IMG/VR virus record: IMGVR_UViG_3300014775_002125
Coordinates: 1-64,000 of that record
Direction: 5' to 3' (one strand)
Source: a virus
Length of the DNA stretch: 64,000 nucleotides
This document shows positions 18,826 through 56,836 of this stretch, in pieces. The notes beneath the pieces were generated by a model. That model did no database searches. It saw only the letters and a program-made list of their open reading frames with translations, and had not been told where the DNA came from. How positions within the stretch are numbered: the stretch's first letter is position 1; each line of letters begins with the position of its first letter. Position numbers and translations under genes: made by a program.

Positions 18826-20103
18826 ATGAGTTTATTTGGTGAGAAAACCAAGAAGAGGGTCATGGTAATTTCCGACAACCCTCTGGCACCAACAGGAGTA
18901 GGTGGACAGACAGCCTATTTTGTTGATGCTATGTTGAAGGAAGGGTGGCAAGTGCTGTGTCTTGCTGGGGCCAGAAAGCACCCATCGTACACTCCACAGG
19001 TCCCAGAGGGTTACACTCCAGAAGAGTACGTGATCATCCCTGTAGATAACTATGGGACGGAAGATGAGATTCGGTCAGCACTTGAAGCGTTCAAACCAGA
19101 CGCTTTATGGGTTATGACGGACCCTCGGTCACTTACACACATCTTTGACATGGAGCACGAAATTCGCCCTTATTGTCCGATTGTGTATTATAACATCTGG
19201 GATAACTTTCCAGCACCCAAGTTTAACGAGTCGTTTTATCGGTCTTGTGATGCTCTGGTTCCTATCTCTAAGGTTACTGCGGAGATCAACAAGGAGCTTT
19301 GCCCAGATATCAAACAGAAACAGATTGGACATGCTGCTGACCTAGAGATCTACAAACCTCTTGACGAGGAGACTAGGAATAATTATAGAGAGAGAACTTT
19401 AAAAGAACTCAGTGATAAATTCCTAGTTTTCTGGAACAATAAGAACCAGCGCCGTAAGCAGTCTGGGACTCTTATCTATGCCTTTAAGCAGTTCCTAGAT
19501 AAGACAGGCGCCAACGCATCTCTGATCATGAAGACAAACCCTAAGAGCGAACATGGTCAGGATCTAGAAGCCATTTGTAGCGACCTTGGAGTTACTCCCG
19601 GTACAGTTAGTTTCTGTAAGGACTTTCTTTCTGAACAACAAATGGCCGAGTTTTATGCTCTCTGTGACTTAGGAATTGTTGTTAGTGATGCCGAGGGCTG
19701 GGGCCTTGCGGTTACTGAGAGTTTAGCGTGTGGTCTACCTGTGATTGCAACAAAGACAGGTGGGATGACAGAACAAATGGAACACGATGGGAAGGTTTTT
19801 GGTAAACTACTAGAACCAACAGCTACTTCCTTGATTGGTTCTCAGGTTGTCCCCTATATCTTCGAGGACCACCTAACCTTTGAGCAGATCTCAGAGGCAC
19901 TAGAAGAAATGTACAACCTCTGGAAAGATGACAAAGATGCTTGGAAGACACTCTCAGAGGATTGTAGGAAGACTGCTGAGGAACGATTCGACTTGAAGGA
20001 CTACCAAAAGAGTTGGGTAGACTTTATGAATGAAGTAGTCGAAGAAAATGGAAGTTACGAGACCCGTAAGAACTACAAAAACTACCGAGTAGCAAAGTTT
20101 TAA
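18826..20103 (+). CDS. Glycosyltransferase (GT-B, GT4-like)
   Basis: ISDNPLAPTGVG, NQRRKQ, and EGWGLAVTESLACGLPVIATKTGGMTE (EX7E motif); ATG at 18826. Confidence 0.9.
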   Translation: MSLFGEKTKKRVMVISDNPLAPTGVGGQTAYFVDAMLKEGWQVLCLAGARKHPSYTPQVPEGYTPEEYVIIPVDNYGTEDEIRSALEAFKPDALWVMTDPRSLTHIFDMEHEIRPYCPIVYYNIWDNFPAPKFNESFYRSCDALVPISKVTAEINKELCPDIKQKQIGHAADLEIYKPLDEETRNNYRERTLKELSDKFLVFWNNKNQRRKQSGTLIYAFKQFLDKTGANASLIMKTNPKSEHGQDLEAICSDLGVTPGTVSFCKDFLSEQQMAEFYALCDLGIVVSDAEGWGLAVTESLACGLPVIATKTGGMTEQMEHDGKVFGKLLEPTATSLIGSQVVPYIFEDHLTFEQISEALEEMYNLWKDDKDAWKTLSEDCRKTAEERFDLKDYQKSWVDFMNEVVEENGSYETRKNYKNYRVAKF

Positions 20104-20112
20104 GGAAGAAAA

Positions 20113-20364
20113 ATGATTGTAAGAAAAGTAACTGAGAGACTGTCCGAGGATTTCCGCAAGAGTTGTTTTGTTTTCGACGGCAAAATCTACCTTGAGGGCT
20201 TCCAGAATGTTGTTTGTGCCCAGAATGTCGAGCAATACTACAAAGAAGTGCAGACAAAAGTTAAGGGAGACGAGGCATTCTTTTATGTTTATGATGCTGT
20301 TCGTAGCCTCTTCTATGGGAATAACAAGTATGAAGAGCACAAGAAAGCTCTGGGGGGCAAATAA
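20113..20364 (+). CDS. Hypothetical protein
   Basis: 83 aa, AAGGA RBS, fills the gap between two glycosyltransferases. Confidence 0.6.
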   Translation: MIVRKVTERLSEDFRKSCFVFDGKIYLEGFQNVVCAQNVEQYYKEVQTKVKGDEAFFYVYDAVRSLFYGNNKYEEHKKALGGK

Positions 20365-21620
20365 TGAAGGCTAAAACACTACTAGTCGGCCCCTTCTTGA
20401 GTATGTCTGGGTACGGTTTTCAGGCTCGTTTTGCCTTGAAGTCACTGTTAAAGCATCAGGACAAACTAGATCTTTATATGCTCGACATTCCTTGGGGTAG
20501 GTCTGGAAAGCTCTGGAAGGACACTGAGGAGCGTAGGTCTATCATTGAACTACTGAAAAAGACAGAGCTTACAGGTGGCTTAGGTGCTCATAAGTTCGAT
20601 TTGAGCTTACAGGTTACCATCCCAAACGAGTTCAAAAACTATGCGAACATCAACGTTGGCTACACTGCTGGCATGGAGACTGACAGGGTACATCCATCAT
20701 GGTTACAGTTCGGAAATGCAATGAATAAGCTCATTGTCGTCTCTGAACACTCCAAGGAAACCTACGAGAATACCCATGAAAAGGCACGGGATCAACTAGG
20801 GAATGAGATTGAACTAAAACTTAATGTGCCAGTAGATGTGGTAAATTATGGCCACCGTGTCATTGAACCAGAGCCTTTTGATATTGACCTGAAGTACGAT
20901 CATAACTTCCTTGTGGTCTCTCAGTATGGTCCTCGAAAGAACATGATTAACACTATTCGTTGGTTCTTGGAAGGTATGCATGATCAGGAAGTAGGCTTGG
21001 TTGTTAAGACATTTGGGCGCCGCAATAGCCGAATTGATTTTGATCAGCTTGTAAAAGAGTTTGAAGTACTTAAGTCCGGCTATGAGGACTGTAAGTGCGA
21101 GGTAGTGTTTCTACACGGTTCTCTTACAAACGGACAAATGAAGTCACTGTACCAAAACGAAAAGATTAAGGCGTTTGTTAATCTAGCTCACGGTGAAGGT
21201 TTCGGACTACCAATGTTTGAAGCAGCTTGTGAAGGCATCCCTGTTATTGCGCCATTCTGGAGTGGTCAGTGTGATTTCCTTTCAATGCCTGTCAATAAGG
21301 GTGGTCGAGTCAAACAGAAACCAATGATCCCTAGAGTTGCTTTTGATCTAGGCCCAGTGCTAAAAGAAGCTGTGTGGGACGGTGTGATCCGTGAAGATAG
21401 TTTATGGTGCTATCCAAACAAGGGAAGTTTCATTAGTAGGCTCAAAGAGGTTGTCAAAGACTATGCTAGGTTTAAAAATCAGGCTACAAAGCTTCAGGGG
21501 TTTTTATTAGAAAACTTTAAAGAAGACGACAAGCTTGAAGAATTTGCCCAAAGTTTCTTGGGGACAGAGGGTGTTCAGCAGATGACTAATCAAGAAGTCC
21601 TAGAGTTGCACTTCATGTAA
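20364..21620 (+). CDS. Glycosyltransferase (GT-B, GT4-like)
   Basis: SGYG, PRKN, and HGEGFGLPMFEAACEGIPVIAPFWSGQCDF (EX7E motif). Confidence 0.9.
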   Translation: MKAKTLLVGPFLSMSGYGFQARFALKSLLKHQDKLDLYMLDIPWGRSGKLWKDTEERRSIIELLKKTELTGGLGAHKFDLSLQVTIPNEFKNYANINVGYTAGMETDRVHPSWLQFGNAMNKLIVVSEHSKETYENTHEKARDQLGNEIELKLNVPVDVVNYGHRVIEPEPFDIDLKYDHNFLVVSQYGPRKNMINTIRWFLEGMHDQEVGLVVKTFGRRNSRIDFDQLVKEFEVLKSGYEDCKCEVVFLHGSLTNGQMKSLYQNEKIKAFVNLAHGEGFGLPMFEAACEGIPVIAPFWSGQCDFLSMPVNKGGRVKQKPMIPRVAFDLGPVLKEAVWDGVIREDSLWCYPNKGSFISRLKEVVKDYARFKNQATKLQGFLLENFKEDDKLEEFAQSFLGTEGVQQMTNQEVLELHFM

Positions 21621-21641
21621 TCCCTCCACCTCTCCCAATCC

Positions 21642-21690: not shown

Positions 21691-21721
21691 CGTTAAAAGT
21701 TTAACATAGCTTGGAGATTAA

Positions 21722-22498
21722 ATGAACACTTCTGAACTTAAAGACCTAATCAAAAACAAGAGCAGGGCCGAACAAAACAGTCTCATGAAAGACTTCTACA
21801 AGGGCAAGAAGTGTGTTTTGTTTTCTTGTGGTCCATCCTTGATTAGTCGTGAAGACTATGATAAGTACGTTGACAATAAAGACTATTATGTCGCAACTGT
21901 CAAACAAGCATACTATCGGTTTTCTGACCATGTTGATTTTCATTTCTTTAACTGCAACAACTTCACAAAGTTCGAGCCAAAGAATGAAAAAACCATTTTC
22001 TTTGCCTCTTCTGTAGAAAGCGAAGAGCAACTTAGGGAAATGGTTTGGGGCGATCAAGAGATCAATGTTCATGATATGTTGCACCCTGAGTATGTTGGCA
22101 AAGAAGATAAAACCCTATCGAGCCTTATGAATTTCGAGGACTGGAAGTTTGACAATGAAATTCTCAGGCCATGGGGTCCGGGAATTGTTTATGAGACTGT
22201 GTTGTTTCATTTGCTGCACATGGGTTTCTCCGAAGTCATTGTGAATGGTTGGGATTATCAATCCCTAGAGAACAAGTCAAAGCAACTCAATCACTTCTAC
22301 AACAAAGATGACAAGAGAGGGGGGCTAAATTTCTTTAAAAATGTCTCTTTAAATATGTTTGACAATGAGAATGAACTGATCGTCAAGTCTTCGGGTGATT
22401 TTTACGACTTTTTGAAAAACAAAAGGATGGAAATTAAACTGTATAGTGACATCAGTCATCTTGACGAAAGAATACCGAGGGTTGGAGGGTTACTGTGA
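21722..22498 (+). CDS. Sialyltransferase/Maf(DUF115)-like ulosonic-acid transferase
   Basis: KKCVLFSCGPSL and LLHMGFSEVIVNGWDY..HFY mirror the GNGPS and GYKEIYLSGIDF motifs of CstII/Maf-type folds. Confidence 0.55.
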   Translation: MNTSELKDLIKNKSRAEQNSLMKDFYKGKKCVLFSCGPSLISREDYDKYVDNKDYYVATVKQAYYRFSDHVDFHFFNCNNFTKFEPKNEKTIFFASSVESEEQLREMVWGDQEINVHDMLHPEYVGKEDKTLSSLMNFEDWKFDNEILRPWGPGIVYETVLFHLLHMGFSEVIVNGWDYQSLENKSKQLNHFYNKDDKRGGLNFFKNVSLNMFDNENELIVKSSGDFYDFLKNKRMEIKLYSDISHLDERIPRVGGLL

Positions 22499-24126
22499 TC
22501 CTGACTGATTGCACTTTAAGGGATGGTGGTTTCCACACTGATTGGAACTTTTCCGAAAAGTTCATCAAGAAAGTTGTGAACTCTCTGATTAAAACAGAAA
22601 TTGACATCATCGAATTGGGCTACAAATCTCCGAAAAATGGTGGTTTGCTCATGAAAAGCAACGATGGATTTCTGAGTAGTGTCATCCATCAAAAAGCCGA
22701 GTTTCGCTTTATGCTCGACTTGTCTGATATGGTTTATGATGAAAAAATCAATATTGAAGTCATTGATGAGGTTGTCAAAGAATCGAAATTCTTCAAAAGA
22801 TGTAGAATTGCATTCAGGGAAACCCAAATCGAACACCTTCTAGAGTGTAAGTCTCTTGTAGAGTCAAAAGGATATGTCGTAGATGCCCTAATGATGGACT
22901 TCACAAGTTACTCTGAAACAAGTTTTGTTGACACTATTAAAACCTTGAGTGACTATGGGCTTGGTATTTTATATCTTTCTGACAGTTACAGTAAATTAAC
23001 CCCCAGCGTTGCTAGAAAAATGTTTCAAGAAGCTAGGACACTCTATGGCGGCGCTCTCGGATTCCACCCTCATGATGGGCTTGGGCTTGCCTACGCAAAT
23101 TCACTAGAAGCTCTTGAAGCTGGTTTTAATGTACTTGATGTTACAATTGACGGGTTTGGGCGTGGCGCTGGTAATCTCTCTTTAGAAAAAGCTTGTATTC
23201 TCCTTGAACGACCTATGGACAATGGAGTTATCGACATCTCTGAGAATGAGTTAAGGGAGATTAAGAAAAACAACCCTTGGGGTGCATCTCTTGAGTATTT
23301 TTATGGCAGTATCAAAGGATACCACCCTTTAAAAACACAAAAAGTACTTAAAGAGTCTTCTGGCTTCTTTGATTTCTCTGAAAACCTACTACATGGTAAG
23401 AAAGAATACACTTCTTGCGTCATCATCCCAGCAAGGATTGGTTCCTCTAGATTCTTTTGTAAGCCTCTTGCTGAAATCAATGGCGAACCAATGATCGTCT
23501 ACGTATGTAGGGCTTCTGCTGAAGCTGTTGGAAGAGGACATGTATATGTTGCGACCGACAGTGAGAAAATTTCACAGGTTGTGAGAGACTATGGGTATAA
23601 GGTGATTATGACCTCAAATAATTGCATCACCGGAACTGACAGGGTTGCAGAGGCTTCCCTAGAGGTAGACTACGACATCTATGTCAACGTGCAAGGTGAT
23701 GAACCGATGGTAAGGCCTTCAGATATTCAGAAAGTCATTGATGCAAAAAAAGAAAATTACAATCATGTGATTAACTGCATGGCTCTTTTGAGCGAAGAAG
23801 AGGATATCAATAATCACGCCATCCCAAAAGTTGTCACGGACGAATTTAATAATCTGCTTTATGCTTCTCGTTCCGCGATTCCAATGAAAAAAAACGGAGA
23901 AACTTCAGTAGCCCACAAACAGGTTTGTATCTACGCCTTCAATTCAGAAGAGCTTAGTTTGTATGACAACAAAAAAACAAAGAATGAAATCATTGAAGAC
24001 ATCGAGGTTGTAAGATGTCTTGACAAGAACCGCAAGGTAAAAATGATTCTCGTTGAGTCTGGAACCTACGCTGTTGATTATGAACACGACATTCAGATTG
24101 TCGAAAGGAAAATGAATGAAATATAA
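22495..24126 (+). CDS. Fusion of a DRE-TIM (4-hydroxy-2-oxovalerate aldolase-like) domain and a CMP-Kdo synthetase (KdsB-like) domain
   Basis: N-half: DCTLRDGG, GFHPHDGLGLAYAN, GFGRGAGN. C-half: IIPARIGSSRF..KPLAEINGEPMI, VATD, TGTDRVAE, VNVQGDEPM, LYASRSAIP, AVDYEHDI. Confidence 0.85.
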   Translation: MILTDCTLRDGGFHTDWNFSEKFIKKVVNSLIKTEIDIIELGYKSPKNGGLLMKSNDGFLSSVIHQKAEFRFMLDLSDMVYDEKINIEVIDEVVKESKFFKRCRIAFRETQIEHLLECKSLVESKGYVVDALMMDFTSYSETSFVDTIKTLSDYGLGILYLSDSYSKLTPSVARKMFQEARTLYGGALGFHPHDGLGLAYANSLEALEAGFNVLDVTIDGFGRGAGNLSLEKACILLERPMDNGVIDISENELREIKKNNPWGASLEYFYGSIKGYHPLKTQKVLKESSGFFDFSENLLHGKKEYTSCVIIPARIGSSRFFCKPLAEINGEPMIVYVCRASAEAVGRGHVYVATDSEKISQVVRDYGYKVIMTSNNCITGTDRVAEASLEVDYDIYVNVQGDEPMVRPSDIQKVIDAKKENYNHVINCMALLSEEEDINNHAIPKVVTDEFNNLLYASRSAIPMKKNGETSVAHKQVCIYAFNSEELSLYDNKKTKNEIIEDIEVVRCLDKNRKVKMILVESGTYAVDYEHDIQIVERKMNEI

Positions 24127-24802
24127 TATTGACAAAGAAGTAGAGGTTGCCCCATTCCCTCATTTTGTTGTTGACGGGTTTTTAGAAGAGGATCTATGTG
24201 AACGACTTAATAGTTCATTTCCAGAAATGCCTTCCACCTACTCAGAGATGTACGGCAGAAAAAAACTTGAAAAATTTAGAAATATCACAGATAAACTTGG
24301 TAACTCTTGGCAAGAATTTCAAGAAATTTTGAACAGTCAAGAGTTTATTTACTCTTTGCTTAGAAAATTCAAACCACACTTAGAAGACTCCTTAATTGAT
24401 TTTAACAAGCCAGTAAAAATTTATAATCAGAGAGTGAACCATGGAAGCCATAACGACTTTTACATGTATTACGACATCAGTGAGGCTGACGTCGGATATA
24501 CTCGTGAGGTCCACAGAGATAACTTTAATAGGCTAGTCAATTTCTTAATTTATCTGAATGATCCTCAGATTAAAGGTGGAGAGTTGGTTTTGTTTTCTTC
24601 CGATAAGAACACAATCCATGCGAGACAACATCCGAGAAATGTTAAAGAGTTTTGCAGAATTAAACCTAAAATGAACCGAGCAGTCTTCTTTTTATCAAAC
24701 AATCATAGTTATCATTCTGTTGAAAAGATAACAGAATGTCAAGTAAGTAGAAAATTCATTTATGGCAGTCTCACAAGTGCAAGTCAAAGGATTTGGAAAT
24801 GA
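24116..24802 (+). CDS. 2OG-Fe(II) oxygenase
   Basis: PFPHFVVDGFL, HRD, NFLIYLN, GGEL, PKMNRAVFF, SYHSV..RK give the HxD..H..R signature. Confidence 0.85.
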   Translation: MKYNIDKEVEVAPFPHFVVDGFLEEDLCERLNSSFPEMPSTYSEMYGRKKLEKFRNITDKLGNSWQEFQEILNSQEFIYSLLRKFKPHLEDSLIDFNKPVKIYNQRVNHGSHNDFYMYYDISEADVGYTREVHRDNFNRLVNFLIYLNDPQIKGGELVLFSSDKNTIHARQHPRNVKEFCRIKPKMNRAVFFLSNNHSYHSVEKITECQVSRKFIYGSLTSASQRIWK

Positions 24803-25503: not shown

Positions 25504-25846
25504 CTTTGAGAAAATCTCGAAGCTCCTTTTGGAAGAAGTTGAGGATAGGTTTGATAAGGAGCCCATGTCTGTCGAAGGTTTGGAGTTCGGTCAAAGCTTT
25601 GCAGAACTACTGGATAGGTTCTTTGTACTTCACATAAGAATGTGGAAAATGGAAGATGCTTGTGGAGAAACCGAAGACGCAGAAGAAATCAAAGCAATCA
25701 AAAAGAAGATTGACCTCTGTTTTAAGGTACACAGGCCGAAAATGACAAGAGCCATTAACTTTTTCTTGGATTCCCATATTGACAAAAACAAAACAAGACC
25801 GTTTTCAGAAGAAAGCGTTAAGTTCTACAGAGGGTACGATGGATAA
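25487..25846 (+). CDS. Helical protein (DUF4254-like)
   Basis: SFAELLDRFFVLHIRMWKMED..KKKID..R pattern, of a type found beside glycosyltransferases. Confidence 0.5.
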   Translation: MSKKNNFEKISKLLLEEVEDRFDKEPMSVEGLEFGQSFAELLDRFFVLHIRMWKMEDACGETEDAEEIKAIKKKIDLCFKVHRPKMTRAINFFLDSHIDKNKTRPFSEESVKFYRGYDG

Positions 25847-26843
25847 AACAGCTTTCATTACTGGAATTACTGGCCAAGATGGTTCATATCTTGCCGAACT
25901 CTTGCTTGAAAAAGGTTATAATGTAATCGGCGGAGTTCGAAGGACAGTTTGTTCGGAAGAAGAAAAGTACAAAAACCTAAAAGACTGTCTTGATGAATAT
26001 GGCCCAACAGAACGCCTCAAGTTTGTTAGTTGTGATGTTACCGATTATGCTTCAATCAGAGAAATCATTGGGAAGTATGACATTGACGAAGTTTACAATC
26101 TTGCGGCTCAATCACACGTTGGAGAGTCTTTTAGAACTCCAATTTCCACAGTAAATATCAATATCGGTGGAGTTCTAAATATTCTGGAAGCAATTCGAAA
26201 CTCAAATAAAGATATCAGGTTTTACCAAGCATCAACCTCTGAGATTTTCGGTGTGAACGAGAAATGCCCACAGAACGAAGAAACAGAATTCCTCCCAGCC
26301 TCTCCTTATGCCGCTGCAAAACTTTGCAGCCATCATTTGGTCAGGATTTATCGTGAGTCTTATGGTATCTTCGCTTGCAGCGGAATCCTATTTAATCACG
26401 AATCTCCTCGAAGAGGTGAGAATTTCGTTACAAGAAAAATCACAAAAGCAGCCGCTAGAATCAAGCTAGGGCTGCAAGACAAGCTAGAACTTGGCAACCT
26501 AGACGCTTACAGAGACTGGGGGTTTGCGGGTGACTATGTTGAAGCAATGTGGTTGATGCTTCAACAAGATGAGCCGAAAGATTTTGTGATTGCATCTGGG
26601 GAGACCTCTTCTGTTAGAGAGTTTCTTGAGTTGGTTTTCAAAAAAGCTGGACTTTCCGTAGAGGAACACGTTGTCATTAACGAGGCTTTTTTTCGACCAA
26701 TGGAAGTCCCAAAGTTGTGGGGTGATCCAACAAGGGCTGAAAATGAGCTTGGCTGGACCAGAAAGATGACACTAAAGACTCTTGCAATTGAAATGTACGA
26801 ACAAGACTACGAAAGGGAGGAAAAAAAATGTTCTGGCCTTTAA
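25839..26843 (+). CDS. gmd: GDP-mannose 4,6-dehydratase
   Basis: AFITGITGQDGSYLAELLL, YNLAAQSHV, YQASTSE, SPYAAAK, GILFNHESPRRGENFVTRKIT, RDWGFAGDYV. Confidence 0.96.
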   Translation: MDKTAFITGITGQDGSYLAELLLEKGYNVIGGVRRTVCSEEEKYKNLKDCLDEYGPTERLKFVSCDVTDYASIREIIGKYDIDEVYNLAAQSHVGESFRTPISTVNINIGGVLNILEAIRNSNKDIRFYQASTSEIFGVNEKCPQNEETEFLPASPYAAAKLCSHHLVRIYRESYGIFACSGILFNHESPRRGENFVTRKITKAAARIKLGLQDKLELGNLDAYRDWGFAGDYVEAMWLMLQQDEPKDFVIASGETSSVREFLELVFKKAGLSVEEHVVINEAFFRPMEVPKLWGDPTRAENELGWTRKMTLKTLAIEMYEQDYEREEKKCSGL

Positions 26844-28003: not shown

Positions 28004-28404
28004 TGACCAAAGAGGATTATATTGATGCTCACAAACAACACAGTAAGAACACCATTGCAGTTGATTTCGACGGGGTACTACATAAAAGCTCTAAGGGTTA
28101 TCATGATGGTACAGTGTATGATGGGCCTGTGGAAGGCAGTCTAGAATCCTTGCGAACGTTGAAAGAGATGGGTTATGAGATCGTTGTGTATACATGCAAA
28201 GCCCACCCCCAGAGACCGCTAGTTGAAGGTAAAACTGGTGTTGAGTTAGTCCGGGAATGGTTAGAAAAACATGGAGTATCGACCTTAGCTAGTGATGTGG
28301 TCTGGGGGAAACCTTGGGCAAAACTGTACATCGACGACAAGGGTTATAGATTCGAGAACTGGGAAGATACAATTAAATTCATTCAGAAACTAAAGGAGAA
28401 CTAA
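28000..28404 (+). CDS. Capless HAD-superfamily phosphatase
   Basis: IAVDFDGVL, VVYTC, GKP, YIDDK (motifs I-IV). Confidence 0.8.
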   Translation: MMTKEDYIDAHKQHSKNTIAVDFDGVLHKSSKGYHDGTVYDGPVEGSLESLRTLKEMGYEIVVYTCKAHPQRPLVEGKTGVELVREWLEKHGVSTLASDVVWGKPWAKLYIDDKGYRFENWEDTIKFIQKLKEN

Positions 28405-36990: not shown

Positions 36991-37380
36991 ATGGGGCTAT
37001 CGACTAAACTACCACTCACATACTCTGAGCGTTACGGATTCTACAGTCAGAACGAAGAGATTCAGGAGCAGATTCGTCAGAATCTCAAAGACTTACTCTT
37101 AACTGCTCCCGGCGAGCGTTTTATCGAACTGGATTATGGAGTCGGCCTGTACGCCTATCTGTTCGAGCCAATGACTGGTAGAACCTTACAGTCTCTTAGA
37201 GACACTATAGGTGCTCAGGTGGCGACCTATATGCCATACATTGAAATTAGGAACTTAAGCGTCAATGAAGGTACGGATAATTTTGGCGGAGGTGCTGCTT
37301 TGTCTGTCGTTTTGGATTACCGTATCACACCGCTGGGCGAAGACGGTGTGGACTATTTAGAAGTAGAGATTAAACAATGA
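36991..37380 (+). CDS. Baseplate wedge/sheath-initiator subunit (T4 gp25/gpW-like)
   Basis: IRQNLKDLLLTAPGERFIELDYGVGLYAYLFEP..YMPYIEI is the GPW_gp25 signature. Confidence 0.9.
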   Translation: MGLSTKLPLTYSERYGFYSQNEEIQEQIRQNLKDLLLTAPGERFIELDYGVGLYAYLFEPMTGRTLQSLRDTIGAQVATYMPYIEIRNLSVNEGTDNFGGGAALSVVLDYRITPLGEDGVDYLEVEIKQ

Positions 37381-46700: not shown

Positions 46701-48921
46701 CACCTATGAAGATTATGCAGTAGACTTGAAACCTCACAACAAGAAGTACTCCCTTGTCTCTCAGTACTCTAACAAAGAGAACTTAGAGTTTTTGAATGGG
46801 AACGACAACAAACTAAAAGGCAATAAGAAGTTTTTGAGGTTGGATGGTGCCACTTACGATGCTTCAGCGGAGACAGAAGAAGGTAGCTTTAACAAGAACT
46901 TCTTTGAGACCTACTCGTTTACCGACATCCTGAGAAATATCACTGAGGTTCGTCTGGAAAATAAGAATAAGACATCAAAGAAATGGAAGTTCAAGGCGTC
47001 TGCTCTCAAGAAGATGCTACCAGAGAATGGGTTCTATCCTGTTACTTATTTGACTCAGATGGCTGGTGTGTTCAGTTCCTCTTATGCTCCTTATATCAGT
47101 GGCTCAGAGTATTCTACACATCCATCATTGGCCCTACAGTCTCTAATGCAGCCCTTCTATGCTCCCGGAATGGCGTTTAACGCTATTAAGAGTGGTCTAG
47201 CAGTTGACTGGCCAATCTTTACGTCTTCTCTACAGGAGAACCTAGCAGTTATCGGTACAGAGCCAACCCCACTACACTACGTTATGCACAACACTAGTGG
47301 TTTTGACTCAAGGATTCCGTTCAAGGCTCTATATGATGAAAACGTAGACATGCCATCGAACAAAAACGTTTACCTTCTAGCTCCAGACAAACTCTATGCC
47401 TCTACAGGTAGCTCTGGTACTAGATTCCCTTACGTTAACTGGGATGGTACACGGAAAACAGACCATAAGAAAGGCTTTAGTTCCTTCATCAGTGGTACCA
47501 AAGAGTTCTTCACAGGGGACCTTGTAGAGATTACCAGTAAACAAGAGAAAGACTTCAAGCCTATGGTCTCTGGTAGTTCCTATTACATGGACATTATTCT
47601 AAGAAAGACCTCTGATTTCGATATTATTAAGAGCAACAACCCAGACTTCCCTGTCTCAGGCTCTTTAGAGCTTAAAGAGTATAACGGCCAGTATTTTGGG
47701 CCTCCCTCTAAGTACGAAGTGGACCCCTCAAATGGCGCTTCAGTCGATACAAGGGCATACAACTTTGCGGACCCTGCTTACGCTCCATATACACCTCCTT
47801 ACTTCTATGGGACAGCGAAAGCAAGGATCAAATTCACAGCTACAGAGACCAGAAAGTACTCTCTAGACGAAATCCTATCTGAAGCTATTAAAAACGTAGA
47901 GTATCTAAACGATGTTGTGGAAACAGGGGACCTAAGCATCTCTGGAGTAGGCGCAGCAACTGAAGGTGAGGCCAATGAGGTACTCGCACGGAACTCTATC
48001 ATGAATCTTGACGCCTCTGTAGAGCTTTTCAACAAGATTAAGGGGTTCAAAGCTGAATTTGTAGTTAACGAGCCAGCAGCATTGGGCCAGCCTCTAGGTG
48101 TTGTTGGGGGAGACCTTGAGCTTAACACTCTACAGCAGCCAGAGGATACTTCTTACGACAGATGGAGAATTAATCCTATCTTTGAGTGTCCTGCGTTAAA
48201 CTTCAGTGGGTCAACCTCTACTAGACCTGTCAGTGGCCAAGAAAACTATGCGGGTTACGGAATTTGGAGCACTTACGGCGAGGTTCCCACAAGCACTCAG
48301 GGTATTTTCCTCGAAGTTGTTGAAAGTTTCGATGAGAGTGAAAAAACAGACCCAACACTCTCTGGATCTTTGATAGATATTTGTGGGTTCGAAAACTCTA
48401 CAAGACAAATCGGAACCCTTAAGGAAAAAAGCCAACTCTCAGAAGGACTAGTAGTAATTCCTTTTGTTAATGAGACTTCCGATGAGGGCGTTGTAGAATA
48501 TGACGACAAGTTTTTCTTTAAGATGGGCGAAGGTAAGCTAAAAGGAGATCTTCTAGGGTTCTTAAACAAATACAACCTGCCTCCTAAGTATGATTTCTTG
48601 AAGCAGGACGTTGAGCCATTCCTATTCATTCCTTTTGAGTTCCATAAGGACGTTCAGAAGGGAGAACTAGCAGACATGTGGCAAGGACTACTACCAAGCA
48701 CTCTAAGGTACGCTGAAGAAGACTCACATACCTTTGAGATTGACGTAGAGACCCTAGAAGAAGCTGGAATTAAAGAGCTACCAGACAATGTTCAGTTTAT
48801 GGTGTTCAGGGTCAAGAAAAAGTCCCATAATCAAGACGGGAACTACTACAACTGGCCCCATGATTACTACACATTGATTGAAAACGTTAACCTAGAAGTA
48901 GATATCGAGTTTAAGAAATGA
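40711..48921 (+). CDS. Giant baseplate wedge-like structural protein with N-terminal LamG domain
   Basis: 2736 aa; FTFEWW..RHYAVT..LDEVRIWKT..YYKFNEG LamG region; LPFYL..IGTSFD..SKG wedge-like segment. Confidence 0.6.
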   Translation: MSIKKLFQSKDLSLKDIKPSKSRVKSLALNKKQFVVPVDFSTPENFVKYGLAEVQYQSAFVKIYNTYPYDGTLEDVETWYNELSSFERYIFDEKYPRGTGYVKLGTTWNRDVTDSSGQYGLSTAPNYITFSGSAGNGFDYPGQRRSETRNSFKDNANIWKPSENLDQNVKLDFESGFTFEWWMAKDGFNSGSTKREVILDLWNGETGASNGRLILEMTASAGSDSCLMLSVYSGSSNYVKELQVGTGSTLSTASVGDNSFRHYAVTVESGSSNLNIKTYVNGLVNESRDTAITGTPFTSISGTYKGRLGGLLTTVSTGTGSVGYGSLISSSLDEVRIWKTRRTEEEIYQNYNKTLFYGAATGRVENYLSVYYKFNEGITGTGSIDQTIMDYSGRVVNGLFYNYESTNRNTGSALVESSKANKEYQEPTLYSFHPDVVSVSDDLRTSGSNYDAQNPTSLWNTLPFYLRNEQEIEILDPDNLPTSELKKLCHLIGTSFDDFALAIDYLPKLKDREYLSGSQDPRSFVETLLHEEGLEFSTLFGDEDILTKLKNTDGNKVFDKSLEYVKGKIYENLYVSMNSINESKGNDEAFVKALRAVGVDENLVNINRYIKNSTRTYTTNYKVSENNKRFLNFYQSGSLSSTLTQATGSESGNARSYIGFHANKLYRDYSPFTMRFSTFMPRKLRQDSKAFFGVDFKTASIGGLRQSSGQLDYTWATNESASLNLMFVKKSSESPSGYYLLTGNVGGTNVELTSSNLTNVYQDTQWDLFVSLVNDKYPLGDKLTGTLSGSYTLSFHGIESLNDTITRTFEKTLSVPFADGSSFLGVDRRAYLGAHRQNFTGSVQQKSDVGIFDFQVIEEKLTNEDRESFAKYGKYADNPSKFRKAFLSSVVSGSNVELAPEISTLLTWDFTDVKRTTDASGEFYLEDLTSGSAARRTSLGAWGAAFAYHYPGQAYSFPLEHVANRKSSVPQIKQLGVDEVSPTSNVRILNFDDAIFKQNEKHEKDLLSFEISRERSLDSVIYEQTSPDEIARVIGKPTSHYEQSYPALQKKSREFFDDATEIRTHEQFFEFYKWVDSTVKEILDNFVQISTPKTDAWNTVESHALERDKLDWKLPILKTITSTHGQFGNSNERSFRWSKEHRPVGGSQAENGDWWRKRATRDGDLTVGASVDADRETLRQRIFTDSYYSSSNDPVYQVAKSHPTTGTYVHRPDYYRNFGKQQGTKLVKGNSSKFITYKNRDMFKSNIKVDGERVAFNIPKEIYLIFSASYKRDVDVDTNVVIKRRAVYKARSEMGREDYISADANRIMPFKIYSASIDGGYSDSLATNFTSGSDITNLHQDYADDIEATQMQGTFSERFVGGRSVRHVPVNSGNDSRSTRPEEFHILIGNLSIPTGTIGVTGPDYPIGGTAGYPAWSYPRAQYYRAVRQKTPISVKNYKMTTSSFGNFTNNHQILFVNKDHSLQHWFRDNLTFSQSASPFVTGAVDYLVPTSSKLESHYVQRFSSPGGFDSNFLDYETSQYSPYNSVNYRNLNVRIPRNELFKRHSGQFGVDIDNSTVGAFHKVPRNSFVRVENSGSSTAETTKYDNEFIQHAIPRKWKAYHWITQSYTGSEIYTEPTESLRGYIEDPGFIRDYTLSGNTGSFSVSTFSQKSFNTSSFTLENTKVTDIYTAADHEMLNSYLNSEHSKFMYSPLIQTRVAERLLRNKKDAYNLFQVSEVFDNDHSVNSFITYEESPLKFDKPFRSKLVSGEQTYNFTYAGLAERYNFADKRIGAALGMPEDPKKQFVYSKLMELEAEGDFETVYGDHQELVYSKKLFPRLQNYGLKRNRLRENYTEVAGTGSNGYDRVLNDRRTFWKDTDKSRSSHLNVLGEGWGRNYWPLGSNNYVTHALDGNYYEIFGGGSYVTIENEETAELSLSYLVSAGGFSYPDVLIHSMFGTGQATGSFQGTSYGDAVDSAYYTTHIATTPFVYGVSLGRFTGFIYPYDTEQISGKSPMYDTYEDYAVDLKPHNKKYSLVSQYSNKENLEFLNGNDNKLKGNKKFLRLDGATYDASAETEEGSFNKNFFETYSFTDILRNITEVRLENKNKTSKKWKFKASALKKMLPENGFYPVTYLTQMAGVFSSSYAPYISGSEYSTHPSLALQSLMQPFYAPGMAFNAIKSGLAVDWPIFTSSLQENLAVIGTEPTPLHYVMHNTSGFDSRIPFKALYDENVDMPSNKNVYLLAPDKLYASTGSSGTRFPYVNWDGTRKTDHKKGFSSFISGTKEFFTGDLVEITSKQEKDFKPMVSGSSYYMDIILRKTSDFDIIKSNNPDFPVSGSLELKEYNGQYFGPPSKYEVDPSNGASVDTRAYNFADPAYAPYTPPYFYGTAKARIKFTATETRKYSLDEILSEAIKNVEYLNDVVETGDLSISGVGAATEGEANEVLARNSIMNLDASVELFNKIKGFKAEFVVNEPAALGQPLGVVGGDLELNTLQQPEDTSYDRWRINPIFECPALNFSGSTSTRPVSGQENYAGYGIWSTYGEVPTSTQGIFLEVVESFDESEKTDPTLSGSLIDICGFENSTRQIGTLKEKSQLSEGLVVIPFVNETSDEGVVEYDDKFFFKMGEGKLKGDLLGFLNKYNLPPKYDFLKQDVEPFLFIPFEFHKDVQKGELADMWQGLLPSTLRYAEEDSHTFEIDVETLEEAGIKELPDNVQFMVFRVKKKSHNQDGNYYNWPHDYYTLIENVNLEVDIEFKK

Positions 48922-51259: not shown

Positions 51260-51263
51260 CATA

Positions 51264-53678: not shown

Positions 53679-53693
53679 ACTTGGAGAAAACAA

Positions 53694-54642: not shown

Positions 54643-55689
54643 ATGTCAACATACTATAAGTCAATCGCACCAAGCGACATCATCCAGAATAAACAAAACC
54701 TATACGAAGCTATCCCTATTACTGGCTCTATTGTTTCTGGTAGTTATGCTGATAGCAACATCAAGAACTACGCTCACGGAATGTTCCAGAGTGTCTATGA
54801 TTACAACTATCTAAGTTCATCAGCTAACCCAATCTTCGACATTACTCTTTGTTACAGCCCCAATTCATCACTAAGTGGGTCTGCTAACACTCAGAACGCG
54901 AAGAAGATTAACCTATACAACTCACTCGCTCAGACTCTTATGGGTTATGATGCAACCGGAAGTATTCTAGAGTTTGATGCTGATGGAGATCTTACGGGCG
55001 GCACAAAGATCCGTGAAGCAGTTGTTGTGAAATTTAACCGTATTATTGCCAAGGACGAACTTAAGAAAGGGAACTTTGCTCTGTATTTAGGAGTCAGTGG
55101 TTCATATTCCACCCCCTTTGCTGAAAGAATCAAAGTTGCTGACACTGGTGCTGCAAGTTCTTACAAGTCTAATGCTGCTGCTGGTGAATATGGAATTCTT
55201 GTTGCTACCAACGCAACAGGAACAAGCCTAGACGGTGTAGAGGCTTCTTGTGGACTCGTGTTTTATCAGGCTGGAGTTGCTATTCTTACGGCTTCTGTCT
55301 TCGGGTCTCTTCTAAGCTCTTCCGCCGGAATGAACTCAAGCAATGAAGGCATCAACGCGGTTCTAACAGGGTCTACAATCGCTTCTGGTTCTGACAATTT
55401 CCGGCACCGCTTCTATGACCTAGACCTCGTAAACACTACCAAGCTCTACTCAACGCAGTATCTTTGTAGAATTAACCATAACGAGTTCAATTACTCAGCA
55501 AACCCAACGTATCTCAACAACTCAAAGGTACGTACAAAGATTCGAGAAACTGACGCGCCTACTAGTTACTTCACGAGTGTTGTTCTAATGAGTGAAGACA
55601 ATACTCCGCTCGCTGTCGGCAAGCTCAGTGAACCTATCAAGAAAGACTCCAACAACGACCTAACATTACGGCTAAGAACAGACTTCTAA
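54643..55689 (+). CDS. Virion structural protein (tail-collar/fibre-attachment-like C-terminus)
   Basis: GLVFYQAGV; C-terminal CR..EFNYSANPT..YFTSVVL..LAVGKLSEPIKK..LRTDF. Confidence 0.6.
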   Translation: MSTYYKSIAPSDIIQNKQNLYEAIPITGSIVSGSYADSNIKNYAHGMFQSVYDYNYLSSSANPIFDITLCYSPNSSLSGSANTQNAKKINLYNSLAQTLMGYDATGSILEFDADGDLTGGTKIREAVVVKFNRIIAKDELKKGNFALYLGVSGSYSTPFAERIKVADTGAASSYKSNAAAGEYGILVATNATGTSLDGVEASCGLVFYQAGVAILTASVFGSLLSSSAGMNSSNEGINAVLTGSTIASGSDNFRHRFYDLDLVNTTKLYSTQYLCRINHNEFNYSANPTYLNNSKVRTKIRETDAPTSYFTSVVLMSEDNTPLAVGKLSEPIKKDSNNDLTLRLRTDF

Positions 55690-55690
55690 T

Positions 55691-56836
55691 ATGAAGAAAA
55701 CTATTGGTAGTAACAACCAGATTGTGAATAATACAATCTATCATACCCCTGTCAGCTTCTTTGTTTACGAGGAAGATGTCTACTACAACCAAGAGTACGC
55801 TATCTCTGGGTCCTTCCAAAATAACTTAGGGTCGATCCCACAAGGTTTTACCAAGATTGGCCGACTAAACACTGATAGCCCAGACAATGCGTACCCTTTT
55901 GTTATTAAAGATACGGACAGACAGGCTTTTAGAAGCACCACCAAGTTAGACTACAGAACAAAAAATGGCGGAGAAAATATTACTGGCTCCTATCCGCTAT
56001 CTGCTAGCATCTCTGTGTTTAACTACGGTGCTTCTTTGGGTGCCTCTGAGAGAAAATATTTAAACCCTCTCAGAAATGCAATGACGAGCTATATGACTTT
56101 AAGTAATCATTTTCAGTATAGCTCGTCGTTGCATGGCAGGGATTTTGATAGCACTAATACAACGTTGATCGATATACCCTCAATTTTCTTTGGGTCATCT
56201 TTAAAGAAGGGCTCAGTAAGTTTAAAGTTCTATGTAACTGGAAGTCTTATTGGAGAACTAACAGATGCCAAGAGAAACGGGGAATTAATACAAAGGTCTG
56301 GTTCGGACTCTGCCAATGACGGTAAGGTCGCCGGAGTTGTTCTTTATAATCATGGAGTGGTCTTGTTGACAGGTTCATGGGATATTGATGGGACACACTC
56401 TGAAAGCTATCTTGGAACACCTCAAAGACCTAAATGGAATCACTTTGGGACCTCTCTGATTTCTAGTAGCATTGGATCTTCTTCTTTTTCACTAGATTTT
56501 GAGAGTTCTGTTCAAAAGTCTACTATGATGATGTTTTTGAATGCCTCCAAGGGTGCTTTCAATTTCTCCCATAACAACACCTTCATAGAGGGCAATGAGT
56601 TCAATAAGTTGTGGACTAGTGGTTCTTACAAGTCTAAAGAGCCTGTGAAGAACGCTGCGAATATCGTTTCTGGTTCCTACAACTACGACTCAGCGACCTA
56701 TGAGCCCACCACTTATATTTCTGAGGTCTTTGTCTACGATGATGAGGGCGACGTAATTATGAAAGGTAAACTCGGAAAACCTCTCAGAAAGCGTTTAAAA
56801 GACGACTACACAATTAAACTTAGGTACGACTTGTGA
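55691..56836 (+). CDS. Virion structural protein, paralog of the upstream gene
   Basis: GVVLYNHGVV; FNFSHNNTF..TYISEVFVYDDEG..GKLGKPLRKR..LRYDL. Confidence 0.6.
   Translation: MKKTIGSNNQIVNNTIYHTPVSFFVYEEDVYYNQEYAISGSFQNNLGSIPQGFTKIGRLNTDSPDNAYPFVIKDTDRQAFRSTTKLDYRTKNGGENITGSYPLSASISVFNYGASLGASERKYLNPLRNAMTSYMTLSNHFQYSSSLHGRDFDSTNTTLIDIPSIFFGSSLKKGSVSLKFYVTGSLIGELTDAKRNGELIQRSGSDSANDGKVAGVVLYNHGVVLLTGSWDIDGTHSESYLGTPQRPKWNHFGTSLISSSIGSSSFSLDFESSVQKSTMMMFLNASKGAFNFSHNNTFIEGNEFNKLWTSGSYKSKEPVKNAANIVSGSYNYDSATYEPTTYISEVFVYDDEGDVIMKGKLGKPLRKRLKDDYTIKLRYDL

What the first reader, a model, noticed from the sequence alone, without database searches (positions are those of the whole stretch)
18826..56836. 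Candidate virion-glycosylation system: sugar-donor/transferase locus plus an [S/T]-G-S sequon-like motif in structural proteins
Seen: the tripeptide SGS/TGS occurs 10 times in the 489-aa protein (39155), 7 times in the 348-aa (54643), 7 times in the 381-aa (55691), roughly 25-30 times in the 2736-aa (40711), and often in the fibre proteins. I found none in the 1041-aa Mre11-Rad50 or the 1558-aa protein. The motifs are dispersed singly in unrelated folds and use varied codons, so they are not a DNA repeat. The same genome carries about four transferases and two nucleotide-sugar pathways (18826-28404). Established: some mycobacteriophages and chloro/mimiviruses glycosylate their virions with their own enzymes, and Ser-Gly is an O-glycosylation acceptor in proteoglycans. 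Inference: [ST]GS is a recognition sequon for phage glycosyltransferases that coat the baseplate and fibres with a glycan shield.
Basis: partly seen in the sequence, partly recalled or inferred. Interest (0 to 1): 0.85.

Follow-up and report, generated by a model that had tools for sequence, protein, structure and literature searches.

The report
Ser/Thr-Gly-Ser tag on phage tail proteins
The outward-facing tail, baseplate and fibre proteins of this uncultured aquatic T4-like phage carry the ordered tripeptide Ser/Thr-Gly-Ser about six times too often, and the excess is found in relatives that share a phage-specific pair of sugar-transferase genes, so it may mark where the phage attaches its own sugar coat, though no chemistry shows this yet.

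Summary
[ST]-G-S occurs 76 times against about 13 expected in five virion proteins of the window. It is order-specific (TGS 34, SGT 5), is seen only in the coding frame and survives 20-aa block shuffles.

It is a clade trait:
- 120 homologues of the 489-aa protein carry 815 motifs against 114 expected, and 120 homologues of the 381-aa protein carry 618 against 85.
- In sheath and capsid orthologues the motifs sit only in the variable domains and at changing positions.
- All 10 phage genomes with both adjacent GT4 transferases show the excess.
- Five T4-like genomes without GT4-1 do not, including a 595-kb relative. One relative with GT4-1 alone shows little.

The accessory sugar genes of the window are not conserved.

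Published nucleoside data for the relative immuto report no glycosylated base.

The sequon reading is therefore plausible (about 0.45) but unproven. The co-occurrence fits a single origin, the structure tool was off, and there is no glycan chemistry.

This scan has already reported the same motif and GT4 pair on many other genomes. I found no paper describing it.

The parts
18826..20103 (+). GT4-1, a soluble GT-B glycosyltransferase. The ORF opens at TTG 18769; the alignable start is the ATG at 18826.
   Evidence: Pfam Glycos_transf_1 52.5 bits (cut-off 26.4) and GT4-conflict 32.4 bits (cut-off 26). EX7E motif EGWGLAVTE at residues 309-317 of the 444-aa ORF, invariant in 9 of 9 clade orthologues. 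The orthologous group is present in 9 of 9 clade genomes.
20364..21620 (+). GT4-2, a second adjacent GT-B glycosyltransferase.
   Evidence: Pfam Glycos_transf_1 25.8 bits, just under the cut-off of 26.4. EX7E motif EGFGLPMFE at 278-286, invariant in 8 of 8 orthologues. Syntenic with GT4-1 in immuto, Mel-JY01 and RM378.
21722..22498 (+). Weak MptE/Maf-like protein (accessory).
   Evidence: Pfam MptE-like E 5.7e-4, 20.1 bits against a cut-off of 34.6; no NCBIfam hit.
22495..24126 (+). HMGL-type aldolase fused to a KdsB-like CMP-sugar cytidylyltransferase (accessory).
   Evidence: Pfam HMGL-like at 2-239 and CTP_transf_3 at 309-507. NCBIfam PRK13368 264 bits against a cut-off of 255. CTP_transf_3 is found in only 1 of 5 near-complete relatives.
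24116..24802 (+). 2OG-Fe(II) oxygenase inside the sugar locus.
   Evidence: Pfam 2OG-FeII_Oxy_3, 49.1 bits.
25779..26843 (+). GDP-mannose 4,6-dehydratase.
   Evidence: Pfam GDP_Man_Dehyd 419 bits. The orthologous group is in 6 of 9 clade genomes.
26828..28003 (+). DegT/PseC-type sugar aminotransferase.
   Evidence: Pfam DegT_DnrJ_EryC1 213.6 bits. The orthologous group is in 5 of 9 clade genomes.
28000..28404 (+). Small HAD-like phosphatase (weak).
   Evidence: NCBIfam EcbF-BcbF capsule phosphatase E 1.8e-6, below cut-off.
897..7880 (+). 2327-aa fibre- or spike-like protein with a beta-helix segment; 24 [ST]GS.
   Evidence: 24 observed v 6.7 expected, z 7.2. Pfam Beta_helix at 383-524.
9546..11519 (+). 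657-aa protein, marginally enriched.
   Evidence: 4 observed v 1.25 expected, p 0.027.
36991..39158 (+). gp25-like and gp6-like inner baseplate wedge proteins with no motif (an internal contrast).
   Evidence: PHROG baseplate wedge hits. 0 motifs each. The gp6 orthologous group has 1 observed v 3.6 expected in 8 genomes.
39155..40624 (+). 489-aa baseplate-adjacent protein; 10 [ST]GS.
   Evidence: 10 observed v 0.86 expected. Its 120 homologues carry 815 v 114, in 34 alignment columns; four of these are held in 87-118 of 120 sequences.
40711..48921 (+). 2736-aa giant baseplate/fibre protein; 28 [ST]GS, 16 of them in the first 930 residues.
   Evidence: 28 observed v 3.7 expected, z 12.6. Pfam Laminin_G_3 at 169-347.
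54643..55689 (+). 348-aa virion protein, paralogue of the next gene; 7 [ST]GS.
   Evidence: 7 observed v 0.67 expected. The orthologous group has 16 members in 9 of 9 clade genomes, with 72 v 10.8. The immuto orthologue is annotated 'virion structural protein'.
55691..56836 (+). 381-aa virion protein, paralogue; 7 [ST]GS.
   Evidence: 7 observed v 0.88 expected. Its 120 homologues carry 618 v 85, in 40 columns.

Best explanation
The tripeptide is a short linear tag: phi-[S/T]-[G, less often A or S]-S-(not Pro, often phi). It has been selected many times over on the exposed, variable domains of virion proteins in one large clade of aquatic T4-superfamily ('Far-T4') phages. These proteins are fibres, the giant baseplate proteins, the 348/381-aa and 489-aa proteins and, in relatives, the sheath, the capsid insertion domain and head-proximal proteins.

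The most likely reason is that it is the acceptor site for O-glycosylation in the infected cell's cytoplasm by the two adjacent, soluble GT4 transferases that are core genes of the same clade. Both look catalytically competent. One would prime the Ser or Thr and the other would extend. The variable downstream genes would then diversify the glycan from phage to phage; in this window these are a CMP-ulosonate-type and a GDP-4-amino-6-deoxyhexose-type pathway, plus weak extra transferases.

Shown here: the statistics, the protein-level selection, the restriction to variable domains, the positional turnover, and the clade distribution of motif and GT4 pair. Inferred: that the tag is modified at all, that the modifier is the GT4 pair, and the order of action.
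For: 1. The excess is large and specific: SGS 42 v 7.5 and TGS 34 v 5.3 in five proteins, with the next tripeptide at p 1e-4. It is present only in the coding frame, with mixed codons. Block shuffles do not reproduce it. Among the orderings of the same residues, only [ST]GS is raised: in 57 virion proteins SGS 135 v SSG 19 and GSS 45, and TGS 106 v 16-36 for the five other orders.

2. The recognition profile looks like a sequon. Position 1 is S or T only (5.1x and 5.3x). The middle is G 5.1x, A 2.7x, S 2.2x, with charged residues at 0.3-0.5x. Position 3 is S 5.1x, T 1.8x. Position -1 is aliphatic or aromatic 348 v 221 and +1 is hydrophobic 316 v 221. Pro at +1 is seen once against 26 expected, over 686 motifs.

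3. Density is kept while positions turn over. In the sheath there are 29 motifs in 25 different alignment columns across 8 orthologues. All lie in the variable middle (29 v 7.3 by that region's own composition) and none outside it (0 v 2.2). In the capsid protein 14 of 15 lie in the variable insertion (14 v 3.4; outside 1 v 2.7). The 489-aa and 381-aa families each have a few fixed sites and about 30-37 variable ones.

4. Inner or non-virion core proteins are at the ordinary baseline: portal 1 v 2.8, gp6 1 v 3.6, terminase 1 v 2.1.

5. Distribution. All 10 genomes with the GT4 pair on the record are enriched 1.8-3.2x genome-wide, with 2-7 proteins each at p<1e-3. These are G000-G005, G006c1, immuto, Mel-JY01 and RM378; the hosts of the three cultured ones belong to three phyla. 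Five of 5 T4-like genomes without GT4-1 are at 0.7-1.5x, with no such protein apart from one 120-aa ORF in ACP17. These are T4, S-RIM12, ACP17, HTVC008M and the 595-kb LR756511, whose capsid protein is 44% identical over 247 aa.

6. Both GT4s keep an invariant EX7E motif.

7. The GT4-1 subfamily was found only on phage-like contigs: 17 of 17 genome-contig hits lie in MAG contigs of discordant taxa.

8. DNA is an unlikely substrate. No ThyA-type hydroxymethylase was found in 0 of 5 genomes. Passages of 10.1101/2023.04.13.536721 report that immuto DNA digests to dA, dC, dT plus a 7-deazaguanine derivative.
Against: - No glycan chemistry exists for any member.
- The co-occurrence of pair and motif fits a single origin on the tree, so it counts as roughly one event.
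- LR756508 has a clear GT4-1 (E 1.9e-60) but no GT4-2. In the 200 of its 484 kb that I scanned, it shows only 51 v 34.7, no protein at p<1e-3 and no motif in its two sheath homologues. GT4-1 alone therefore does not predict the motif.
- Non-virion proteins show no avoidance of the motif beyond the ~0.7x baseline, which outgroups show too. A promiscuous cytoplasmic transferase might have been expected to cause avoidance.
- In this window the GT4 genes are not next to the structural genes, and four tail-module proteins (48918-54632) carry 0-1 motifs.
- The flanking hydrophobic residues and the exclusion of Pro are also what a tight loop between two beta-strands would give.
- At some conserved columns the Gly is kept while S/T varies (TGA, TGT, AGS, SGN), which looks structural.
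- Exposure was not tested on a model because the structure tool was off.
- Two actinophages with a distant single GT4 show no excess.
Confidence: 0.45

Rival explanations
1. The tripeptide is a purely structural or physicochemical device and is not modified. It would be a favoured three-residue loop at the tips of beta-hairpins (phi-S/T-G-S-phi) that this clade uses to build or stabilise its exposed beta-rich decoration domains, or to hydrate or passivate the virion surface. On this reading the GT4 pair does something else, such as acting on host envelope glycans or a small molecule.
For: Hydrophobic residues at -1 and +1 and near-absence of Pro at +1 fit strand-loop-strand. At several conserved columns Gly is retained while the flanking S/T is replaced. 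Outgroup marine T4-likes show a mild SGS excess without the GT4 pair (HTVC008M SGS 35 v 17.5). LR756508 has GT4-1 without a clear motif excess. There is no avoidance in cytoplasmic proteins.
Against: A generic turn preference should also raise NGS, DGS, SGN and SGT, but these are at or below expectation. The excess is clade-specific and absent from other beta-rich T4-like tail proteins. Rapid positional turnover with conserved density points to selection for the tripeptide itself rather than for particular loops. The GT4 pair is conserved across phages whose hosts belong to three phyla, which argues for a substrate belonging to the phage.
Confidence: 0.3
2. The tripeptide is a recognition site for some other trans-acting factor of the clade. 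This could be a different post-translational modification (phosphorylation, acylation, or a phosphoglycerol- or teichoic-like adduct), or a fibre/baseplate assembly chaperone that binds exposed hairpins.
For: The same statistics that support a trans-acting reader do not say which reader it is. About 22 orthologous groups are shared by 8-9 of 9 clade genomes, several of them unannotated.
Against: No kinase or other protein-modifying enzyme was identified among the annotated core genes. The only conserved enzymes with a plausible Ser/Thr-hydroxyl chemistry are the two GT4s.
Confidence: 0.12
3. The GT4 pair glycosylates phage DNA or host targets, and the motif is unrelated. Their shared distribution would simply reflect common descent.
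For: In RM378 the pair lies among replication genes (polymerase-like, ribonucleotide reductase, Erf, helicase). In immuto and Mel-JY01 it follows a PD-(D/E)XK nuclease. The co-occurrence is phylogenetically confounded.
Against: No ThyA-type pyrimidine hydroxymethylase was found in 0 of 5 genomes, and ThyX is present in 3 of 5. The reported immuto DNA nucleosides include no glycosylated base (passages). Hosts in three phyla make a common host target unlikely.
Confidence: 0.1

Closest known systems
Mycobacteriophage virion glycosylation (Che8, Corndog, Myrna) by phage-encoded glycosyltransferases. Freeman et al. 2023 is not held; it is known here from passages of PMC12363180 and PMC12582341.
   Same: Phage-encoded cytoplasmic glycosyltransferases that decorate the phage's own virion proteins. 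The GT genes are accompanied by methyltransferase or GT2 genes, as also in immuto and Mel-JY01 and in the actinophage phiPsal1, where a distant GT4 lies between the capsid and neck genes.
   Different: Those are siphoviruses of Actinobacteria, and the capsid and tail tube are the reported targets. No dispersed tripeptide sequon is described in what I could read. Two actinophages carrying a distant GT4 show no [ST]GS excess. Here the targets would be the tail, baseplate and fibre surfaces of T4-like myoviruses, and nothing has been shown chemically.
Staphylococcal SdgA/SdgB, and streptococcal GtfA/GtfB: pairs of GT-B enzymes that O-GlcNAcylate serines of repeat adhesins. The biology is recalled; the NCBIfam SdgA model is.
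   Same: Two GT4-type soluble enzymes acting on Ser hydroxyls of surface proteins in the cytoplasm, one priming and one extending. Both phage GT4s give weak hits to the SdgA model (E 2.8e-4 and 9.4e-5).
   Different: The hits score 19.6 and 21.2 bits against a cut-off of 800, so the phage enzymes are not members. The acceptors there are long Ser-Asp or Ser-rich repeats, not isolated tripeptides on folded domains. Unlike GtfB, both phage proteins keep EX7E.
The eukaryotic/bacterial N-glycosylation sequon N-X(not Pro)-S/T, and viral glycan shields (established knowledge, recalled).
   Same: A three-residue tag with Pro excluded next to it. It is scattered over exposed surfaces, its positions turn over between relatives and its density is kept.
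   Different: The chemistry would be O-linked, not N-linked; the setting is cytoplasmic and phage-encoded; and the Pro exclusion is at +1 after the tripeptide.
Chlorovirus PBCV-1 capsid glycosylation by virus-encoded transferases at non-canonical sites (recalled; PMC7019647 was seen only in a search listing).
   Same: A virus-encoded, host-independent glycosylation machinery with its own site rules.
   Different: A eukaryotic algal virus, with N-linked glycans on the major capsid protein.

Membership tests
CAZy GT4-type retaining GT-B glycosyltransferases | Match to Glycos_transf_1 (PF00534) above the gathering score | tested here: met
   GT4-1 scores 52.5 bits against 26.4. GT4-2 scores 25.8 bits against 26.4, marginally below. 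PF00534 matches were found in 5 of 5 near-complete relatives, with two adjacent matches in each.
CAZy GT4-type retaining GT-B glycosyltransferases | Conserved EX7E motif in the C-terminal Rossmann domain (the motif name is recalled) | tested here: met
   E-G-x-G-x4-E is invariant in 9 of 9 GT4-1 and 8 of 8 GT4-2 orthologues.
Phage virion O-glycosylation systems (mycobacteriophage type) | Glycan detected on virion proteins | not testable with these tools
   No mass-spectrometry or staining data exist for any clade member. Literature searches found none.
Phage virion O-glycosylation systems (mycobacteriophage type) | Glycosyltransferase genes embedded in or next to the virion structural module | tested here: not met
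   In the window the GT4 pair (18.8-21.6 kb) lies among non-structural genes, about 15 kb upstream of the baseplate genes. In RM378 it lies among replication genes.
SdgA/SdgB-type serine-repeat adhesin O-glycosyltransferases | Score above the NCBIfam NF047880 cut-off | tested here: not met
   19.6 and 21.2 bits against a cut-off of 800.
Maf/MptE-like flagellin nonulosonic-acid transferases | MptE-like (PF01973) domain above the gathering score | tested here: not met
   The 258-aa ORF at 21722-22498 scores 20.1 bits against 34.6. The linked CMP-sugar gene is absent from 4 of 5 relatives.
Phage DNA glycosylation systems (T4 alpha/beta-glucosyltransferase type) | A pyrimidine hydroxymethylase (ThyA family) that provides the acceptor base | tested here: not met
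   PF00303 found in 0 of 5 genomes (the control rang in 10 of 14 genomes); ThyX found in 3 of 5.
Phage DNA glycosylation systems (T4 alpha/beta-glucosyltransferase type) | Glycosylated nucleosides in virion DNA | tested here: not met
   Passages of 10.1101/2023.04.13.536721 report that immuto DNA gives dA, dC, dT and fdPreQ1 in place of dG. This rests on a relative, not on this phage.
Bacterial autotransporter heptosyltransferases (BAHT: TibC, Aah) | Homology of the transferase to the BAHT family | not tested
No BAHT model was searched here. The phage enzymes are GT4 by Pfam.

The most novel reading that the evidence does not exclude
A whole clade of abundant aquatic T4-like phages would coat its tail, baseplate, fibres and parts of its sheath and head with O-linked glycans. 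It would use a defined minimal sequon, phi-[S/T]-G-S-(not Pro), read by a dedicated two-enzyme GT4 system. Interchangeable sugar-pathway islands would then vary the glycan between phages, much as O-antigen loci vary it between bacteria. The clade has more than 2,000 homologues of each marker protein in metagenomes, and its cultured members infect Flavobacterium, Microcystis and Rhodothermus. This would be the first defined O-glycosylation sequon of a bacterial virus.
Probability: 0.4. Interest if true: 0.85.

Novelty: new variant of a known kind. Interest (0 to 1): 0.7.

Why it matters
If the tag is a glycosylation site, virion glycosylation is not a peculiarity of actinophages and giant algal viruses. 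It would be a core trait of a very common group of marine and freshwater phages. That bears on adsorption, host range, particle stickiness, grazing and decay in water, and recognition by defence systems. A three-residue O-glycosylation sequon read by soluble cytoplasmic enzymes would also be a useful glyco-engineering tool. The question can be tested directly, because three members of the clade are in culture (immuto, Mel-JY01, RM378). If the tag is instead only structural, it is still an unusually sharp lineage-specific sequence rule for exposed hairpins.

Tried and rejected
- The PDB profile search for the 489-aa family gave nothing below E 0.5. GT4-2 had no PDB relative. GT4-1 gave only generic GT4 hits such as BshA.
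- Two ESM Atlas look-ups returned only unnamed viral clusters and a weak CBM96 lead, with no structure.
- PHROGs and Pfam gave no family for the 348-, 381- and 489-aa proteins.
- I tested for a motif-avoidance signal in non-virion proteins. Seven clade core families that have outgroup homologues gave 4 v 11.8. The outgroups show the same ~0.7x baseline, so I rejected this as evidence.
- I looked for a shared late promoter. TATAAATA occurs twice, at chance level, and a k-mer count over 40 upstream regions found no common motif. This was dropped.
- I looked for independent lineages.
  - Two actinophages with a distant GT4 (TJE1 15 v 11.2; phiPsal1 7 v 7.7) show no excess. This is uninformative, because their GT4 is only 23-25% identical.
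  - The flanks of 17 GT4-1 loci from genome contigs hold no structural genes.
- GT4-2 was not searched in ACP17 or HTVC008M; only the GT4-1 profile was run there.
- G007c6 (98 v 28.8) is not counted among the genomes with the pair, because its GT4-1 lies on another contig of the same bin.
- Mel-JY01 ORF 635-3052, an S/G/T low-complexity protein, was left out of the context count.
- Supplements of papers were not opened. Those of 10.1101/2023.04.13.536721 may hold fuller nucleoside tables.

Full report
WHAT THE WINDOW IS. The window is the first 64 kb of a 131-kb IMG/VR virus record (G000; CheckV completeness 72%). All long ORFs lie on one strand. The genome encodes a gp23-type capsid protein. 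It also encodes a large terminase, a portal and a tail sheath, gp25- and gp6-like baseplate wedge proteins, and PhoH, a primase and an SbcC-like protein. By capsid protein its nearest cultured relatives are Microcystis phage Mel-JY01, Flavobacterium phage vB_FspM_immuto and Rhodothermus phage RM378. This places it in the divergent 'Far-T4' branch of T4-like myoviruses (the branch name is recalled).

THE OBSERVATION.
- I translated 44 ORFs of the window and compared [ST]GS counts with 1000 composition-preserving shuffles of each.
- Five proteins stand out: 897-7880 (24 v 6.7), 39155-40624 (10 v 0.86), 40711-48921 (28 v 3.7), 54643-55689 (7 v 0.67) and 55691-56836 (7 v 0.88). No shuffle reached the observed value.
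- An unbiased scan of all tripeptides in the five proteins puts SGS (42 v 7.5) and TGS (34 v 5.3) far ahead of everything else, at p about 1e-17 against 1e-4 for the third.
- The signal is strictly ordered. SGT is 5 v 5.3, and xGS is raised only for x = S or T.
- Over 57 virion proteins of the clade, SGS is 135 against SSG 19 and GSS 45. TGS is 106 against 16-36 for the other five orders of the same residues.
- The signal exists only in the coding frame (76 v 12.8; the other five frames give 2-9, at expectation). It uses all four Gly codons and both Ser codon families. It is therefore selected at protein level and is not a DNA repeat.
- Shuffling within 20- or 40-aa blocks does not reproduce it.

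IT IS A CLADE TRAIT.
- The 489-aa protein has more than 2,250 metagenomic homologues. The best 120, mostly at about 45% identity, carry 815 motifs against 114 expected, and every one has at least two.
- The motifs fall in 34 alignment columns. Four columns are held in 87-118 of 120 sequences; the rest are variable.
- The 381-aa protein behaves the same way: 2,341 homologues, the best 120 with 618 v 85, in 40 columns.
- I fetched five near-complete relatives (G001-G005, 157-190 kb), a more distant 185-kb contig (G006c1, GC 31%) and the three cultured relatives.
- SGS and/or TGS are the first- or second-ranked tripeptides in G000-G005, immuto and G006c1, and SGS is fourth-ranked in Mel-JY01 and RM378. 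Genome-wide ratios are 1.8-3.2, and 2-7 proteins per genome reach p<1e-3.
- T4 (20 v 28.8), cyanophage S-RIM12 (82 v 56.3), Acidovorax phage ACP17 (29 v 30.7) and Pelagibacter phage HTVC008M (55 v 37.7) show no such protein. The one exception is a 120-aa ACP17 ORF.

WHICH PROTEINS CARRY IT. I clustered the nine clade genomes into orthologous groups; 70 groups are present in at least four genomes.
- Enriched groups: the 348/381 paralogues (72 v 10.8, all nine genomes), the 489-aa protein (38 v 5.4), a 130-aa head-proximal protein (17 v 2.1), the tail sheath (29 v 8.8), the 466-aa protein after the capsid gene (18 v 3.8) and, weakly, the capsid protein (15 v 5.5).
- Groups at or below expectation: portal (1 v 2.8), gp6 (1 v 3.6), terminase (1 v 2.1), SbcC (1 v 2.3), the tube candidates (0 v 1.0 each) and the enzymes.
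- In immuto the enriched proteins include the annotated tail spike, the tail sheath and a neighbour of an annotated 'virion structural protein'.
- Not every tail-module protein is enriched. In the window, 48918-54632 (four ORFs) carries 0-1 motifs.

WHERE IN THE PROTEINS.
- In the sheath alignment, the 29 motifs of 8 orthologues occupy 25 different columns. All lie in the poorly conserved middle (columns 160-800), giving 29 v 7.3 by that region's own composition. There are none in the remaining 3,636 residues (0 v 2.2).
- In the capsid protein, 14 of 15 motifs lie in the variable stretch (columns 150-365; 14 v 3.4) and 1 v 2.7 lies outside.
- That stretch coincides with a gap between the two segments matched by the Pfam Gp23 model. 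It is therefore a lineage-specific insertion.
- So the motif is confined to variable domains, its positions turn over quickly, and its density is maintained. That these domains face outward is inferred from T4 structures as I recall them. It was not tested here, because structure prediction was off.

THE TAG IN DETAIL.
- Position 1 accepts only S or T. The middle accepts G (5.1x), then A (2.7x) and S (2.2x), while charged residues are depleted (0.3-0.5x). Position 3 is S (5.1x), then T (1.8x).
- Over 686 motifs in 97 proteins, the residue before is aliphatic or aromatic (348 v 221) and rarely D, E or K. The residue after is hydrophobic (316 v 221).
- Pro after the motif is almost never seen (1 v 26), whereas Pro two residues on is normal (21 v 26).
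- This profile fits a loop between two strands. It equally fits an enzyme that reads an extended backbone.

THE CANDIDATE ENZYMES.
- The locus at 18.8-28.4 kb holds two adjacent GT4 genes; a weak MptE-like ORF; an HMGL-aldolase/KdsB-like fusion; a 2OG-Fe(II) oxygenase; a GDP-mannose 4,6-dehydratase; a DegT aminotransferase; and a small HAD-like ORF.
- Only the GT4 pair is conserved. PF00534 pairs occur in 5 of 5 relatives, whereas CTP_transf_3 occurs in 1 of 5. By BLAST clustering GT4-1 is in 9 of 9 clade genomes and GT4-2 in 8 of 9. A profile finds the ninth (RM378) weakly, at E 1e-9.
- The pair is syntenic in immuto, Mel-JY01 and RM378.
- Both proteins keep an invariant EX7E motif, so both look active.
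- The GT4-1 subfamily was found in genome contigs only on 17 MAG contigs of discordant taxonomy, that is, on phage contigs.

IS DNA THE SUBSTRATE? No ThyA-type hydroxymethylase is present (0 of 5), and ThyX is present in 3 of 5. Passages of a preprint on 7-deazaguanines report that immuto DNA digests to dA, dC, dT and a formylated preQ1 derivative in place of dG. This makes DNA glycosylation unlikely for the conserved pair.

CO-OCCURRENCE AND ITS LIMITS.
- All 10 genomes with the pair on the same record are enriched.
- All 5 T4-like genomes without a GT4-1 match (profile A2) are not. These include LR756511, a 595-kb phage with a Far-T4-type capsid protein (44% identity over 247 aa). It has neither GT4-1 nor GT4-2, gives 97 v 72.5 and has no protein at p<1e-3.
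- Against a simple link, LR756508 has GT4-1 (E 1.9e-60) but no GT4-2. In the 200 of its 484 kb that I could fetch, a stretch that includes its capsid, sheath, portal and 348-like genes, it gives only 51 v 34.7. TGS there is 26 v 13.3, and one 348-like protein has 3 v 0.34.
- The motif therefore tracks the pair rather than GT4-1 alone.
- All of this still fits one gain on the tree, so it is weak as a correlation.
- Two actinophages with a distant single GT4 show nothing.
- Non-virion proteins show no motif avoidance beyond the ~0.7x baseline that outgroups also show.

COMPARISON WITH WHAT IS KNOWN.
- Phage-encoded virion glycosylation is established for mycobacteriophages Che8, Corndog and Myrna (passages of PMC12363180; PMC12582341). 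The primary paper is not held.
- The present case would resemble it in logic. It differs in phage type, in target proteins, and in having a sharp tripeptide tag.
- Pairs of GT4-type protein O-glycosyltransferases such as SdgA/SdgB are the closest enzymatic analogy. The phage enzymes fall far below that family's cut-off.
- My searches found no paper describing an [ST]GS tag on phage proteins.

EARLIER NOTES OF THIS SCAN. The same motif with the same GT4 pair has already been reported and followed up on many other genomes (one search listed eight follow-ups). These notes are leads, not evidence. I re-tested two of their points here: the G/A tolerance of the middle residue and the link to the pair. 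I could not re-test the claim that the motifs sit on exposed hairpin tips.

VERDICT. The glycosylation-sequon reading is the best single explanation, at about 0.45. A purely structural hairpin motif (about 0.3) and other readers or substrates remain open. Chemistry on a cultured relative would settle it.

Noticed in passing
window 22495-24126: One ORF fuses an HMGL-type (DRE-TIM) aldolase domain (residues 2-239) to a KdsB-like CMP-sugar cytidylyltransferase (309-507). A make-and-activate fusion for an ulosonic-acid-type sugar is unusual. It is present in only 1 of 5 near-complete relatives.
   Followed up: partly
Genome-contig loci L197-L213: All 17 GT4-1 matches in the species-genome collection lie in MAG contigs labelled with unrelated taxa (Pelagibacter, Woesearchaeota, Saccharibacteria, Methanobacteriota, Maricaulis and others). 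One is a 185-kb contig with a gp23-type capsid gene. These appear to be phage contigs binned into cellular MAGs.
   Followed up: partly
G000 76189-78045 (beyond the window; L001/L002): The capsid protein matches the Pfam Gp23 model in two pieces (profile 2-51 and 109-354) separated by about 200 residues. This is a lineage-specific insertion domain, and it is where relatives carry their [ST]GS motifs. G000's own capsid protein has none.
   Followed up: partly
L195 (Pontimonas phage phiPsal1) 6979-9351: A GT4, a SAM methyltransferase and a GT2 gene sit between the major capsid and neck genes of this actinophage. The same gene trio (GT4, GT2, methyltransferase) follows the GT4 pair in immuto and Mel-JY01.
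   Followed up: no
window 40662-40669 (-) and 40703-40710 (+): The only two TATAAATA octamers of the window form an inverted pair in the 87-nt gap just upstream of the 2736-aa gene. The second one abuts its ATG. The number of matches is at chance level.
   Followed up: no
G000 whole record: IMG/VR classes the record as 'provirus', although its gene content is that of a T4-like virulent myovirus with all long ORFs on one strand. The label may be an artefact.
   Followed up: no
Mel-JY01 635-3052 (L149): An 805-aa S/G/T low-complexity protein makes SGT, TSG and GTS the top tripeptides of that genome (SGT 96 v 22.8). This repeat protein is distinct from the dispersed [ST]GS signal.
   Followed up: no
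HTVC008M (L238-L245): Pelagibacter phage HTVC008M, which gave no GT4-1 profile match, shows a mild SGS-only excess (35 v 17.5) while TGS is at expectation (20 v 20.2). This may be a background tendency of marine T4-like structural proteins.
   Followed up: no
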